Made by a program: the position numbers and the translations under genes. Source: a phage. Taken from it: a DNA stretch of 64,000 nt. The stretch is taken from the NCBI GenBank assembly GCA_036253495.1, contig GCA_036253495.1_4125.1. One strand, 5' to 3'. Positions 55,397-59,322 of the stretch are shown here, one piece after another. Numbering within the stretch: position 1 is the first letter of the stretch; each line of letters opens with the position of its first letter. The notes below the pieces were generated by a model that worked only from the letters and a program-made list of their open reading frames with translations, made no database searches and had not been told where the DNA came from.

Positions 55397-55421
55397 TAAA
55401 GCACCCAAGTGGTGCTTTTTG
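55397..55421 (+). terminator. rho-independent terminator
   Basis: Hairpin agcacc/ggtgct followed by TTTTT. Confidence 0.65.
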
Positions 55422-55554: not shown

Positions 55555-56496
55555 ATGCAAATAGATAAATTATATACGGACGTAACTAACTTCCTCAACC
55601 AGAGTAACGCTGATTTAACAAATGAAAATGCAAATAAAGACGCTAAATGTGTTAATACACATCGTGATTTATTGGCAGGTATTCTTTCTAAACATTATTC
55701 CCAAGATGTGATTCCTGATGAATTGATGAAGTGGCATAATGAAGGTTACGGTCATATTCATGATTTAGACTATTACATTAGCCCATTAACAAACTGTTGT
55801 TTAGTTAATTATCCTGATATGCTTGCTAATGGCTTCATGATTGGTTGTGCCAAGATTGAAGAACCAAAAAGCTTTGGGGTAGCTTGTACAGTACTAACAC
55901 AGATTGTTCAGGCTGTGGCAAGTTCACAGTACGGTGGTCAGTCGTTGGCTCACATTGACACTGGCCTTGCACCATATGTACAAAAGTCATGGGATAAACT
56001 TCTAGAAAAACAAAAGAAATACAATCTTAGTACTGAATTCATCGAAGATGAGTTGCGTAAGGAAGTTTATGACGGTTGTCAAACAATTCTATATCAAACA
56101 AACTCAATGATCAGTACTAATGGTCAGGCTGCGTTCATTTCTTTGAGTTTAGGATTAGGTACATCTAAATTTGAAAAACTAATCACTGAACAATATTTGA
56201 AAGTACATGAAAATGGACTAGGTAAAGATAAGATTACTCCAGTATTTCCTAAAGTAATATTCTTTCTTCAGGATGGAATTAATATGAATACCAATGATAC
56301 TAACTATGATCTTAAACAGTTAGCTATGCGTTGTGCATCAAAAAGAATCTATCCAGACTTTGTTTCTGTACCATTGAACCATAAAGTAACTGGAAGTACC
56401 AGTACTGCTGTTACTCCTATGGGATGCAGAAGCTTCTTAGGTAAATGGGAAGATGAAAATGGCAACGAACAGTACAATGGCCGTTTCAATTTGGGT
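55555..56496 (+). CDS. nrdD: anaerobic ribonucleoside-triphosphate reductase NrdD, exon 1
   Basis: N-terminal 314 codons of a class III RNR; the frame runs into the interruption and stops at 56523; proposed 5-prime splice site after ...GRFNLG (exon ends in U). Confidence 0.75.
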
Positions 56497-57666
56497 AGAC
56501 ATACATGCCCCATTGCTGAGTGATCAGTAATTGCAAACACGTTAACATGCTGGAACCCCCTAAAGCCATAAACACTACAACGCAATCTTAATAGATAAAC
56601 GTGAATGTTACGAGAGTAGAAAAAAGTTTTATGGATATATAATAAGTTGTAAATCATATTATATGTACAATGGGAAATCAGCAGCCAAGCCATCATTAAT
56701 ATAATGGTGGAAGGTTCAACGAGTATAATACGTGACTCTAATATTAAAACTTCCATAAATAATATTTTATGGAGGATATATAATGAGAAAAGGAAGTATA
56801 TATAAAATAGAATGTATAGTAACTAATAAAGTTTATATTGGACAAACCGTTTTATATCCACCGATGAAAAGATGGGTGGAACACTGCCAAAACAATGATG
56901 AAAAATCATGTATTAGTAAAGCTATTAAAAAATTTGGTTTTGAAAATTTCACATTTCAAATTTTAAAAACTAATATTGATTTAAATAATCTTAATGATGA
57001 AGAAATAAAATATATTGAAATTTATGATAGTTATAAGAATGGTTACAACTCAACATTAGGTGGTCACCAAACCTTTAATGGAAGTAAAATAACTGAACTT
57101 GATGCTATAAAAATTATAGAATATATTAAATCATATAAAGATCTTTCATTCGTAGAAATAGCAAAAACTTTAAATGTTCCATACGGCTGTGTAAGTGATA
57201 TAAATTGTGGCGAAACTTGGTATCAAATAAATGAAACATACCCTATTAGAGATAACAAAAGAAATAAGATTGAAGATAATATAGATTCAATTTATGAGTT
57301 ATTGAGAAATGGTGTTTCTAGTATAGAAATTGCAAAAATATATAATGTTTCAAATGTCACCATTTGTAACGTTAATAATGGAACAATCTATCGAAACGAA
57401 TCAGTTGAATACCCAATTTTTAAACCACAAAATTCATCAAAACGACATTCTATTGAAATAGTTTCTAAGATTATTGATATGTTAATTAATACAGATAAAA
57501 ATTATTCTGAAATTGCAAAATGTTTAAATGTAGGAAGAAAAACTGTTGCAAATATCAATAACGGTTCTGGATATAAAGAACTATCAAATGAACTTGGTTA
57601 TATATCATTTCCTCTTCGTTAGAGTATGGTGTACTCTAATCCTTCATGAAAGTGAAGGTACAAATG
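56497..57666 (+). mobile_element. probable group I intron interrupting nrdD, carrying a GIY-YIG homing endonuclease ORF
   Basis: 1.17 kb separating two halves of nrdD; exon 1 ends in T, the interruption ends in G (candidate omega-G); GCCCC a few nt inside the 5-prime end can pair with exon GGGU (P1 with U-G wobble); ~285 nt structured segment precedes the ORF, as in the T4 nrdD intron. Confidence 0.6.
56783..57622 (+). CDS. GIY-YIG homing endonuclease (I-TevII-like)
   Basis: 279 aa; N-terminal GIY-YIG module (GSIYKIECIVTNKVYIGQT); repeated helix-turn-helix-like segments downstream; lies within the nrdD interruption. Confidence 0.8.
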   Translation: MRKGSIYKIECIVTNKVYIGQTVLYPPMKRWVEHCQNNDEKSCISKAIKKFGFENFTFQILKTNIDLNNLNDEEIKYIEIYDSYKNGYNSTLGGHQTFNGSKITELDAIKIIEYIKSYKDLSFVEIAKTLNVPYGCVSDINCGETWYQINETYPIRDNKRNKIEDNIDSIYELLRNGVSSIEIAKIYNVSNVTICNVNNGTIYRNESVEYPIFKPQNSSKRHSIEIVSKIIDMLINTDKNYSEIAKCLNVGRKTVANINNGSGYKELSNELGYISFPLR

Positions 57667-58530
57667 GTTGTCTCAATCAACCTACCGCTAATTGCTCTTG
57701 AAAGCACTACTGATGGTGATTTCTTTGATAAGATAGATGAGCATATGAACATTGCATACAGAGCACAGATGAACCGTGTAGAGCGTTTAAAAGGTACTAA
57801 GGCTAAACAGAACCCGATTCTGTTCATGGAAGGTGCTCTTGCACGTCTTGATGCAGAAGAAACTATTGACAAACTCTTCTACGATGGTTATGCTAGTATT
57901 AGTATTGGTTATGTAGGATTAGTTGAATGTTCAGAGATTTTGACTGGTTCAATCAGTAAAGAGTTCTGTATGTCAGTACTGAATTATATGAAAGTCAAAT
58001 GCGATGAGTTCAAAAAAGAGAGTAACATAGCTTTTAGTCTATATGGAACCCCAGCAGAGTCACTTTGCTACAAATTTGCACGTTGCATCGAATCTAAGTA
58101 CCCTTCAGTACTAAAACGTGATTACATCACAAATTCCTTCCATCAACCAGTATGGGTAGAAAGTTCACCATTTGATAAGTGGAGTTACGAAGAGGGCTTT
58201 GCTTACCTCAGCAATGGAGGAAACATCAGTTATGTGGAATCACCCAACCTAAGTAACAATATTCAAGCACTTGAGACTTTAGTCAATTACGCTTACACAA
58301 AGATTCCATATTTTGGCATCAACCAGCCAATTGACCAGTGTTTCGAGTGTGGGTATAAAGGTGAGTTCAGTGTAGATAAACACGGTTTTCATTGTCCAGT
58401 ATGTGATAATCGCAATGAGAAGACAATCTCAGTGATTCGTCGTGTTTCTGGATATTTGGGGAACCCATCGTCTCGTGGATTCAACAAAGGCAAACAACAA
58501 GAATGTTGTGAGCGTATACAACACAAATAA
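57667..58530 (+). CDS. nrdD: anaerobic ribonucleoside-triphosphate reductase NrdD, exon 2
   Basis: C-terminal part with zinc ribbon CFECGY...CPVCDN and glycyl-radical motif RRVSGYLG; exon junction reads ...FNLG|VVSINLPLIALE. Confidence 0.75.
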   Translation, partial: VVSINLPLIALESTTDGDFFDKIDEHMNIAYRAQMNRVERLKGTKAKQNPILFMEGALARLDAEETIDKLFYDGYASISIGYVGLVECSEILTGSISKEFCMSVLNYMKVKCDEFKKESNIAFSLYGTPAESLCYKFARCIESKYPSVLKRDYITNSFHQPVWVESSPFDKWSYEEGFAYLSNGGNISYVESPNLSNNIQALETLVNYAYTKIPYFGINQPIDQCFECGYKGEFSVDKHGFHCPVCDNRNEKTISVIRRVSGYLGNPSSRGFNKGKQQECCERIQHK

Positions 58531-58538
58531 GGTACATT

Positions 58539-58871
58539 ATGGATTTAAAGCCAATTGTAGTTAACAAATATAAAGAACCATATGATGTGTATATTGGTCG
58601 TGGGTCTAAATGGGGAAATCCATTTACCCACATTAATGACAAACAAACAAAGGCAGAGTTTATAGTTCCGACACGAGAAGAGTCGATTGAGAAGTTCAGA
58701 GAGTATCTTATCCAAAGAATTGAAAATGGTGAGGTTACTATCGAAGAACTACTTGAATTGGCTGGGAAGCGTCTTGGGTGCTTTTGTAAGCCAAAATCAT
58801 GTCATGGTGATGTTCTTGTAGAAATAGTGAGTGCAATATTAGATGAATTACCAGACGATAATCAAGGATGA
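58539..58871 (+). CDS. conserved phage protein of unknown function
   Basis: 110 aa; motifs YDVYIGRGSKWGNPF and GCFCKPKSCHGDVL. Confidence 0.65.
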   Translation: MDLKPIVVNKYKEPYDVYIGRGSKWGNPFTHINDKQTKAEFIVPTREESIEKFREYLIQRIENGEVTIEELLELAGKRLGCFCKPKSCHGDVLVEIVSAILDELPDDNQG

Positions 58872-59322
58872 TTTAGTCAATGGAGAGGGAGTTAGATGCT
58901 CCCTTTTTGTTTCAGGGTGTAGCCACGGATGTGAAGAATGCTTCAACGAAAAAGCATGGGATTATCGCAGTGGGGAAGTATTCAGTACTGAAACAGTTGA
59001 AATCATCCTGAATGAACTTAACAAGCCATATGTACAAGGATTATCCCTTTTAGGTGGTGATCCATTGATGCCAAAGAATATCAGTACTGTTATTGAGTTA
59101 TGTAAAGTAGTAAAAGAAAAATATCCAAATAAAGATATTTGGTGCTGGAGTGGTTATACTTTAGAGGAAATAATAAATAATCATGCCTCCGCAATACTAG
59201 AGTACATTGATGTATTAGTTGATGGTAAATTTATTCTTGAAGAAAAGAATTTAGAATTACCATTTAGAGGCTCTAATAATCAACGTATTCTTCGTAAAGG
59301 AGTAGATTATGCGTTATCTTGA
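58843..59322 (+). CDS. nrdG: anaerobic ribonucleotide reductase activating protein (radical SAM)
   Basis: 159 aa; N terminus MNYQ...VNGEGVRCSLFVSGC and cysteine cluster CSHGCEEC typical of NrdG. Confidence 0.85.
   Translation: MNYQTIIKDDLVNGEGVRCSLFVSGCSHGCEECFNEKAWDYRSGEVFSTETVEIILNELNKPYVQGLSLLGGDPLMPKNISTVIELCKVVKEKYPNKDIWCWSGYTLEEIINNHASAILEYIDVLVDGKFILEEKNLELPFRGSNNQRILRKGVDYALS

What the first reader, a model, noticed from the sequence alone, without database searches (positions are those of the whole stretch)
55555..58530. nrdD split by a probable group I intron carrying a GIY-YIG homing endonuclease
The anaerobic RNR gene is in two pieces separated by 1.17 kb containing a GIY-YIG endonuclease ORF (56783-57622). 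Joining after ...GRFNLG (56496) to VVSINLP... (57667) restores a continuous NrdD; the upstream exon ends in U and the interruption ends in G, as group I splicing requires. A ~285 nt structured segment precedes the endonuclease ORF. This mirrors the T4 nrdD intron with I-TevII, so it is expected biology, but the exact splice sites are inferred.
Basis: partly seen in the sequence, partly recalled or inferred. Interest (0 to 1): 0.5.

Follow-up and report, generated by a model that had tools for sequence, protein, structure and literature searches.

The report
Mobile self-splicing intron in phage nrdD

Summary
nrdD is exon 1 (55555-56496) plus exon 2 (57667-58530), separated by 1,170 nt (56497-57666) that contain a 279-aa GIY-YIG ORF (56783-57622). 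Removing the insert gives a 601-aa NrdD colinear with the uninterrupted gene of phage 121Q.

The group I intron reading is supported, although Rfam RF00028 finds nothing in the window.
- **Homology:** a profile of ten related intron cores hits 56532-56725 at E=2e-30. Several of those relatives pass RF00028.
- **Recurrence:** the same intron and endonuclease sit at the same nrdD codon boundary in Vibrio phage PWH3a-P1 and two uncultured phage lineages.
- **Structure:** with the ORF deleted, 93% of cells pair in a P1-P9 fold that includes the P3/P7 pseudoknot. Thirty-two pairs show compensatory changes.
- **Mobility:** the intron is 95.6% identical to that of phage TH47, while the exons are about 82% identical. 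A short flanking tract (-4 to +21) travels with the intron.

The T4 comparison is analogy only. The insertion site differs (two codons after the catalytic Asn), the endonuclease is unrelated to I-TevII, and the ORF lies in the P8 loop. This is ordinary biology: a new member of a known kind. Splicing itself has not been tested.

The parts
55555..56496 (+). nrdD exon 1 (codons 1-314, ends ...GRFNLG). It contains the thiyl-radical Cys (PMGCRSF, C291 = T4 C290) and the catalytic Asn (N312 = T4 N311).
   Evidence: The residue roles come from my knowledge of the T4 NrdD literature.
56493..56510 (+). P1: exon GGGU (56493-56496) pairs with the internal guide GCCC (56507-56510), with the U56496-G56507 wobble at the 5' splice site. 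A56497-U56506 extends the helix by one pair.
   Evidence: helix 1, 100% paired; the A-U pair becomes U-A in PWH3a-P1. G(-4) and U(-1) are found only in intron-bearing alleles.
56497..57666 (+). Group I intron, 1,170 nt.
56513..56530 (+). P2 hairpin UUGCUGA-GUGA-UCAGUAA with a GNRA loop. The in-frame stop for exon-1 read-through (UGA, 56521-56523) lies in its loop.
   Evidence: helix 2. There is a compensatory A-U to C-G change between the window and TH47.
56538..56542 (+). P3 5' strand CACGU, which pairs with ACGUG at 56730-56734 (pseudoknot with P7).
   Evidence: helix 3: 4 of 5 pairs show compensatory changes.
56548..56683 (+). P4 (56548-56553 with 56678-56683), P5 (56558-56560 with 56672-56674) and a large, conserved P5 extension that includes an A-rich segment.
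   Evidence: helices 4-10; blastn and nhmmer conservation across many phage introns.
56684..56715 (+). P6 (GCC 56684-56686 with GGU 56713-56715) and P6a (56690-56697 with 56703-56710).
   Evidence: helices 11-12.
56721..56727 (+). P7 5' strand GAGUAUA, which pairs with UGUACUC at 57630-57636. G56721-C57636 corresponds to the guanosine-binding pair.
   Evidence: helix 13. GAGUA/UACUC is a double compensatory swap relative to GACUA/UAGUC in related RF00028 introns.
56735..56742 (+). P8 5' strand ACUCUAAU, which pairs with GUUAGAGU at 57618-57625 and so encloses the endonuclease ORF in the P8 loop.
   Evidence: helix 14: 6 of 8 pairs show compensatory changes across lineages.
56750..56775 (+). 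10-bp hairpin that sequesters the endonuclease Shine-Dalgarno sequence GGAGG (56771-56775).
   Evidence: MFE -12.6 kcal/mol, z = -2.6. A regulatory role is inferred.
56783..57622 (+). Homing endonuclease gene, 279 aa: an N-terminal GIY-YIG domain (about residues 1-95) followed by three helix-turn-helix repeats of about 55 aa. The stop codon UAG (57620-57622) lies inside the P8 3' strand.
57618..57636 (+). P8 3' strand (57618-57625), J8/7 (AUGG), and P7 3' strand (57630-57636).
57637..57666 (+). J7/9 UAAU; P9 hairpin CCUUCAU-GAAA-GUGAAGG (57641-57658); P9.0 (A57639-U57665, U57640-A57664); terminal G57666 at the 3' splice site.
   Evidence: helices 15-16, compensatory changes. P9.0 covaries in PWH3a-P1 (UAAC with GU).
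57667..58530 (+). nrdD exon 2 (codons 315-601, begins VVSINLP; glycyl-radical domain).
57667..57687 (+). Intron-linked exon tract. Synonymous variants at +3, +6, +9, +15, +16 and +21 are shared by the two intron-bearing coliphages and absent from intron-less alleles.

Best explanation
The 1,170-nt insert is a mobile group I intron. nrdD is transcribed through it, and the RNA folds into the group I core: P1-P2, P3-P8, P4-P6 with a large P5 extension, P7, P9 and P9.0. A free guanosine attacks after U56496, which forms the U-G wobble of P1. The released exon 1 then attacks after the terminal G57666. This joins GGU|GUU and restores a 601-aa NrdD (inferred, not tested). The P8 loop carries a 279-aa GIY-YIG endonuclease with three helix-turn-helix repeats. 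Its ribosome-binding site is buried in a 10-bp hairpin, which probably limits its expression. In mixed infections the enzyme is inferred to cut intron-less nrdD alleles near the insertion site, probably within the first ~20-25 nt of exon 2. Repair from the intron-bearing allele then copies the intron together with a short flanking tract (-4 to +21). That tract also supplies the exon bases needed for P1 pairing.
For: (1) Precise in-frame insertion relative to uninterrupted homologues. (2) The 5' core resembles many phage introns. Relatives score 58-96 bits on RF00028. An nhmmer profile of ten relatives, none from the window or TH47, gives one hit in the window, at 56532-56725, E=2.1e-30. (3) The same intron and a homologous endonuclease sit at the same RFN.G|VV boundary in Vibrio phage PWH3a-P1 and IMG/VR contigs L096/L100 and L063. 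(4) Covariation on the ORF-deleted alignment: 73 pairs, 93.4% paired against 35-41% when partners are slid. Thirty-two pairs carry compensatory changes against 4-12 when slid, and 0 of 500 shuffles reach the observed values. The P3 pseudoknot and the ORF-spanning P8 both covary. (5) P7 GAGUA/UACUC is a double compensatory swap of the canonical GACUA/UAGUC. (6) Between the window and TH47, 17 of 23 ribozyme differences are unpaired, 4 make two compensatory pairs, and none disrupts a helix. (7) The single-sequence fold has z=-4.0. (8) Mobility: the intron is 95.6% identical to TH47 while the exons are 81-82% identical. TH47 looks like intron-less Ecwhy_1 from -40 to +65 except at -4, -1, +3, +6, +9, +15, +16, +21 and +22. 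All of these but +22 match the window. (9) The endonuclease keeps the equivalents of I-TevI Y6, Y17, R27, H31, E75 and N90 (alignment). It differs from the TH47 copy at 18 synonymous and 11 nonsynonymous codons.
Against: Rfam RF00028 gives no hit in the window, even at E<=10 on the 1.5-kb stretch. The T4 nrdD intron scores 105 bits as a positive control. J8/7 is divergent (AUGG/UAUGGUG against the usual AAGAUA). The P7.1/P7.2 elements found in related introns are absent. P10 pairing is weak and not consistent across lineages. No RNA data show splicing, and no cleavage data exist for the endonuclease.
Confidence: 0.9

Rival explanations
1. Genes in pieces: the insert is a free-standing endonuclease cassette that splits nrdD into two separately translated genes. 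The products would assemble without RNA splicing, as in Aeromonas phage Aeh1 nrdA split by mobE.
For: Exon 1 reads on for only 8 codons to a UGA. The last three intron bases are an in-frame AUG (57664-57666), with GAAGG 5 nt upstream. All four lineages end in AUG or GUG in frame. NCBI's pipeline annotates two fragments plus a nuclease.
Against: The 330 non-coding nt show a complete, covarying group I fold, which an endonuclease cassette has no need for. The GAAGG lies in the 7-bp P9 stem. The AUG to GUG change in PWH3a-P1 is matched by U to C in J7/9, as expected for P9.0 pairing rather than start-codon selection. Intron-linked exon bases create P1 pairing.
Confidence: 0.04
2. Decayed intron: the ribozyme no longer splices, so nrdD is effectively a pseudogene in this phage while the endonuclease persists.
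For: No RF00028 hit; unusual J8/7; no P7.1/P7.2.
Against: There are no helix-disrupting substitutions between the window and TH47, and there are two compensatory pairs. Both exons are intact, in frame and full length. The same unusual J8/7-P7 sequence is conserved in distant lineages. nrdG downstream is intact.
Confidence: 0.04
3. Dual use: the intron splices, but unspliced RNA is also translated from the terminal AUG to give a C-terminal NrdD fragment as a back-up.
For: A conserved in-frame AUG or GUG and a G-rich P9 3' strand at Shine-Dalgarno distance occur in all four lineages.
Against: Both features are explained by RNA structure (P9, P9.0, terminal G). There are only four related lineages, and no protein evidence.
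Confidence: 0.05

Closest known systems
Vibrio phage PWH3a-P1 nrdD intron (HQ634156; CDS annotated as a join, and I found no paper describing it)
   Same: Same insertion point (..NLG|VV..), and a homologous ribozyme (71% identity over intron nt 11-234). It also has GAGUA/UACUC in P7, the ORF in P8, a GAAA-capped P9, and a homologous GIY-YIG/HTH endonuclease at 37% identity.
   Different: The Vibrio copy's endonuclease is frameshifted near its 5' end, and its 3' part is mislabelled as a reductase. It does pass RF00028 (58 bits). Many helices differ by compensatory changes.
Phage T4 nrdD (sunY) intron with I-TevII
   Same: A group I intron in a phage anaerobic reductase gene that carries a GIY-YIG-class homing endonuclease. 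The concept is the same: splicing plus homing.
   Different: The insertion site differs (T4 codon 180 against G314|V315 here). The T4 core scores 105 bits on RF00028, while this one scores nothing. The T4 ORF lies after P9, and here it is in P8. I-TevII has no significant similarity to this protein.
Group I introns of Twort-like Staphylococcus phages, Enterococcus, Listeria, Clostridium, Acinetobacter and Aeromonas phages
   Same: Shared P3-P7 core and the same conserved P5 extension, at about 68-82% nucleotide identity.
   Different: They sit in other genes (tail tube, nrdE-like, rpoB and others). They have the canonical GACUA/UAGUC P7 and AAGAUA J8/7, and those aligned have P7.1/P7.2-like inserts. 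ORFs are absent or placed elsewhere.
T4 td intron with I-TevI
   Same: The GIY-YIG catalytic motif residues align. The ribosome-binding site of the intron ORF is sequestered in a hairpin, a feature of the T4 intron ORFs (my knowledge: Gott et al. 1988).
   Different: The DNA-binding region here is three HTH repeats rather than zinc finger, helix and HTH. T4-type late promoters (TATAAATA) are not used by this phage.
Aeromonas phage Aeh1 nrdA split by mobE (genes in pieces)
   Same: A reductase gene split by an endonuclease gene, with an apparent stop and start at the junctions.
   Different: Aeh1 has no ribozyme. Here a full covarying group I fold flanks the ORF.

Membership tests
Group I intron | 5' splice site after a U that forms a U-G wobble in P1 with an internal guide sequence | tested here: met
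   U56496-G56507 with GGG/CCC. The pair is invariant in five sequences, and the adjacent pair covaries. U(-1) and G(-4) are intron-linked.
Group I intron | Terminal guanosine (omega-G) at the 3' end of the intron | tested here: met
   G57666, fixed by alignment to uninterrupted nrdD. All four lineages end in G.
Group I intron | Conserved core helices P3-P9 with the P3/P7 pseudoknot, supported by covariation | tested here: met
   93.4% of cells paired and 32 covarying pairs. P3 has 4 of 5 pairs covarying and P8 has 6 of 8. P7 is invariant within the family but is compensated relative to its relatives.
Group I intron | Guanosine-binding G-C pair in P7 | tested here: inconclusive
   G56721-C57636 aligns with the G-C of GACUA/UAGUC in RF00028-matching relatives. 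Function cannot be shown from sequence.
Group I intron | Match to Rfam RF00028 at the gathering score | tested here: not met
   No hit, even at E<=10. The homologous PWH3a-P1 intron scores 58 bits and relatives score 81-96 bits. The likely cause is the 869-nt P8 loop plus the variant J8/7-P7.
Group I intron | GTP-dependent self-splicing, or a ligated exon junction in RNA | not testable with these tools
   No transcript data are available.
Subgroup IA2 (T4/Twort type) | P7.1/P7.2 helices between P7 and P3' | tested here: not met
   Only UAAU (56726-56729) separates P7 from P3'. Relatives L007, L008 and L012 have 40-60-nt inserts there. The subgroup is left unassigned.
GIY-YIG homing endonuclease | GIY-YIG catalytic domain with conserved Tyr, Tyr, Arg, His, Glu and Asn | tested here: met
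   PF01541 scores 26.8 bits against a cut-off of 22.6. phrog_7168 'homing endonuclease' scores 9e-28 over the full length. Y7, Y18, R30, H34, E74 and N89 align with I-TevI Y6, Y17, R27, H31, E75 and N90.
GIY-YIG homing endonuclease | Site-specific cleavage of the intron-less allele, and homing | tested here: inconclusive
   The evidence is indirect: the intron is 95.6% identical while the exons are about 82% identical, the exons are mosaic, and a -4..+21 tract is co-inherited. There is no biochemical test.
I-TevII orthologue | Sequence similarity to T4 I-TevII and the same target site | tested here: not met
   BLASTP best E=0.6. The insertion site is about 134 codons away.

The most novel reading that the evidence does not exclude
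All four lineages of this nrdD intron end in an in-frame AUG or GUG, preceded at Shine-Dalgarno distance by the G-rich 3' strand of P9. Unspliced RNA might therefore also be translated into a separate C-terminal (glycyl-radical) half of NrdD. That half could pair with the exon-1 product, giving a splicing-independent, 'genes-in-pieces' back-up for an essential-site intron.
Probability: 0.05. Interest if true: 0.6.

Novelty: new member of a known kind. Interest (0 to 1): 0.3.

Why it matters
There are three practical points.
- **Annotation:** the intron is invisible to the Rfam group I model and to NCBI's annotation pipeline. The source contig (352 kb, filed under an E. coli O157 assembly) therefore carries a 322-aa 'fragment' of NrdD and no annotated intron. 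The same will be true of similar jumbo-phage genomes.
- **Biology of the family:** it defines a small family of nrdD introns that target the codons right after the catalytic asparagine. The family is shared by an E. coli jumbo phage group, a marine Vibrio phage and two uncultured phages, so an old element is moving between unrelated phages through an invariant active-site sequence.
- **Experimental use:** the TH47/Ecwhy_1 comparison gives an unusually clean natural co-conversion footprint. It predicts where the endonuclease cuts and could guide tests of it.

None of this changes the understanding of group I introns.

Tried and rejected
- **Rfam on the window:** no group I hit at the gathering threshold, or at E<=10 on 56300-57800. 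The only matches were chance snoRNA and lncRNA hits.
- **Exact 14-mer scan:** ATGGTGTACTCTAA (J8/7-P7') against IMG/VR gave 81 hits. All but one (L063) were chance matches without intron context.
- **Own covariance model:** I used an nhmmer profile instead.
- **T4-style late promoter:** I considered one inside the hairpin upstream of the endonuclease gene (CATAAATAA). I rejected it because TATAAATA is depleted in the window, with 3 found against 10.7 expected.
- **Local hairpin after the stop codon:** GAGUA-UGGUG-UACUC looked like an alternative structure. I rejected it because it is not conserved in PWH3a-P1, and UACUC is the P7 3' strand.
- **P10:** 5'-GACA(U)AC with exon 2 GUUGUC is plausible in the window, but it is not conserved in L096 or PWH3a-P1, so I list it only as a candidate.
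- **Other searches:** the sigma-70 promoter scan found no more sites than shuffled sequence. A search of complete E. coli genomes found no copy of the intron. Literature searches for PWH3a-P1, or for Asteriusvirus plus intron, found no description.
Full report
**What is in the sequence.** The region holds three consecutive + strand ORFs.
- 55555-56523 encodes the N-terminal half of NrdD (Pfam NRDD profile positions 1-283).
- 56783-57622 encodes a 279-aa GIY-YIG protein.
- 57646-58530 encodes the C-terminal half of NrdD (profile positions 280-562, plus the glycyl-radical domain).

The window belongs to a jumbo coliphage of the 121Q/PBECO4 group (Asteriusvirus). Most relatives have an uninterrupted 1,806-nt nrdD, and only phage TH47 shares the insert. 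Alignment with 121Q fixes the boundaries without ambiguity...AATTTGGGT(56496)|AGACAT...ACAAATG(57666)|GTTGTCTCA. The insert is 1,170 nt. Removing it gives a 601-aa NrdD of the same length as in 121Q, A4 and Ecwhy_1.

**Is it a group I intron?** The obvious test fails. Rfam finds nothing in the window at gathering thresholds, and nothing for RF00028 even at E<=10 on the 1.5-kb stretch. The T4 nrdD intron scores 105 bits as a positive control. Four other lines of evidence establish the intron.

1. **Homology to certified introns.**
 - The first ~240 nt of the insert are 68-82% identical to non-coding gaps in split genes of many phages: Staphylococcus Twort-like, Enterococcus, Listeria, Clostridium, Enterocloster, Acinetobacter and Aeromonas phages, and Vibrio phage PWH3a-P1.
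 - Several of these pass RF00028: Enterocloster 96 bits, Aeromonas 90, Acinetobacter 81 and PWH3a-P1 58.
 - An nhmmer profile built from ten such cores, none from the window or TH47, hits the window once, at 56532-56725, with E=2.1e-30.

2. **The same element at the same site elsewhere.**
 - A pattern scan of IMG/VR found further copies.
 - PWH3a-P1, the contig pair L096/L100 (259 kb) and L063 (75 kb) carry a homologous intron at the identical codon boundary (RFN.G|VV).
 - Each has a homologous GIY-YIG/HTH endonuclease in the same position. It is intact in L100 and L063 and frameshifted in PWH3a-P1 and L096.

3. **Covariation.**
 - I deleted the ORF from five copies and let RNAalifold fold the alignment.
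 - It recovered P1, P2, P4, P5 with a three-way P5 extension, P6/P6a, P7, P8 and P9.
 - After adding the P3 pseudoknot by hand, 93.4% of cells form standard pairs, against 35-41% when 3' partners are slid by 1-3 columns.
 - Thirty-two of 73 pairs have compensatory changes, against 4-12 when slid. None of 500 shuffles reaches the observed values.
 - P3 covaries at 4 of 5 pairs. P8, whose two strands are 869 nt apart and enclose the ORF, covaries at 6 of 8.
 - P7 is invariant within this family (GAGUA/UACUC), but it is a double compensatory swap of the canonical GACUA/UAGUC of the relatives.
 - L2 is always a GNRA loop and L9 is always GAAA, as expected for group I tertiary contacts.
 - The two bases before the terminal G pair with J7/9 (P9.0). 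This pairing covaries in PWH3a-P1 (UAAU with AU becomes UAAC with GU).

4. **Recent purifying selection on the fold.**
 - The window and TH47 ribozymes differ at 23 positions.
 - Seventeen are unpaired and four make two compensatory pairs (in P2 and P5a).
 - One is C-G to U-G, and one falls at a terminal position that is unpaired in both sequences. None disrupts a helix.
 - The ORF-deleted window sequence alone folds with z=-4.0.

**Anatomy.**
- P1 pairs exon GGGU with GCCC (56507-56510), with the U-G wobble at the 5' splice site.
- Exon-1 read-through stops after 8 codons at a UGA in the P2 loop.
- The endonuclease ORF lies in the P8 loop, and its stop codon is part of the P8 3' strand.
- The 44 nt after the ORF carry the 3' strand of P8, J8/7, the 3' strand of P7, P9, P9.0 and the terminal G.
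- Rfam probably misses the intron for two reasons. The core is split by the P8 ORF. J8/7-P7' also differs from the model consensus (UAUGGUG-UACUC against AAGAUA-UAGUC). This explanation is an inference.
- The P7.1/P7.2 helices seen in related introns are absent, so I do not assign a subgroup.

**The endonuclease.**
- It matches Pfam GIY-YIG above threshold and a full-length PHROG homing-endonuclease family at 9e-28.
- Its residues Y7, Y18, R30, H34, E74 and N89 align with the catalytic set of I-TevI (the residue roles come from my knowledge of I-TevI).
- The C-terminal two thirds are three ~55-aa helix-turn-helix repeats, each ending in a YP(I/L)R-like motif (reading of the sequence, with multiple HTH Pfam hits).
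- Its Shine-Dalgarno sequence is buried in a 10-bp hairpin.
- The ORF has 25% GC, against 34.5% for the window. Between the window and TH47, 18 codons differ synonymously and 11 non-synonymously, which suggests selection to keep the protein.
- The closest homologues in isolated phages are TH47 (96%) and PWH3a-P1 (37%). Everything else is distant.

**Evidence of mobility.**
- The intron is 95.6% identical between the window and TH47, while their exons are only 81-82% identical.
- The window's nrdD is a mosaic. Bases 1-690 are about 99% identical to intron-less phage A4. Bases from about +260 of exon 2 onward are about 98-100% identical to intron-less Ecwhy_1. The central ~500 nt around the intron resemble neither.
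- TH47 is Ecwhy_1-like from -40 to +65, except for a cluster at -4, -1, +3, +6, +9, +15, +16, +21 and +22. All of these except +22 are identical to the window.
- This is the footprint expected from homing with a short co-conversion tract skewed into exon 2. It suggests that the cut lies there.
- The -4 G and -1 U are exactly the bases needed for P1.

**Comparison with T4.**
- The T4 intron interrupts codon 180. This one lies between G314 and V315 (T4 G313|V314), two codons after the catalytic Asn and 23 codons after the thiyl-radical Cys.
- I-TevII is not detectably similar to this protein.
- T4's ORF follows P9.
- The resemblance is therefore functional, not one of descent. The true sibling is the PWH3a-P1 intron. 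Its GenBank record shows a joined CDS, and I found no paper describing it.

**Rivals.**
- A genes-in-pieces arrangement is suggested by the in-frame terminal AUG with GAAGG 5 nt upstream. However, that GAAGG is the 3' strand of P9, and the AUG/GUG variation is explained by P9.0 covariation.
- A dead intron is argued against by the absence of disruptive substitutions and by the intact exons.
- Neither rival can be excluded without RNA or protein data.

**Status in databases and verdict.**
- The window's HEG and the 322-aa NrdD fragment are in NCBI on a 352,052-bp contig filed under E. coli O157. They are annotated as 'GIY-YIG nuclease family protein' and 'anaerobic ribonucleoside-triphosphate reductase', with no intron.
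- The TH47 record is unannotated.
- Introns in phage nrdD are common knowledge (PMC3653736, PMC12880540).
- The verdict is a well-supported but ordinary finding: a new member of a known kind.

Noticed in passing
window 55555-58530 (spliced coordinates 1-690, 690-1200, 1200-1806): nrdD is a three-part mosaic. The 5' third is about 99% identical to phage A4 and the 3' third about 98-100% to phage Ecwhy_1. The ~500 nt around the intron are about 80% identical to every compared Asteriusvirus, as if imported with the intron from an unsampled donor.
   Followed up: partly
window 57652-57666: The intron ends in an in-frame AUG with GAAGG 5 nt upstream, and all four lineages end in AUG or GUG. P9/P9.0 pairing probably explains this (a compensatory change in PWH3a-P1), but separate translation of exon 2 is not excluded.
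   Followed up: partly
window 58539-58871 and 58843-59322: A DUF4326 gene sits between nrdD and nrdG and overlaps the start of nrdG by 29 nt. The arrangement is conserved in 121Q and A4.
   Followed up: no
L103 5316-5678 (phage A4): A4 has an extra ~120-aa ORF annotated 'pyruvate formate-lyase' between nrdD and the DUF4326 gene. It may be a GrcA/YfiD-like glycyl-radical spare part. It is absent from the window and from 121Q.
   Followed up: no
L004 3280-4140 (Vibrio phage PWH3a-P1): The intron endonuclease is frameshifted near its 5' end. The remaining 177-aa ORF is mis-annotated as 'anaerobic ribonucleoside triphosphate reductase'.
   Followed up: yes
L096 vs L100 (IMG/VR): These are two near-identical copies of the nrdD intron. 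The endonuclease ORF is intact in L100 (304 aa) but split by a 2-nt length difference in L096. This could be decay or an assembly error.
   Followed up: partly
L008 1642-1861 and L012 1659-1875: A second, weaker RF00028 match (29-32 bits) lies ~300 nt upstream of the main intron in Acinetobacter phage ME3 and Aeromonas phage phiA009. These may be tandem introns.
   Followed up: no
L009 3800-3869 (Clostridium phage c-st): A RAGATH-18 RNA match (60.8 bits) lies directly downstream of an IS 'OrfB' transposase gene.
   Followed up: no
window, whole: The T4 late-promoter octamer TATAAATA is under-represented (3 found, 10.7 expected), so this phage does not use T4-type late promoters.
   Followed up: partly
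window 55398-55418: A terminator-like hairpin with a T-rich tail lies ~140 nt upstream of the nrdD start.
   Followed up: no
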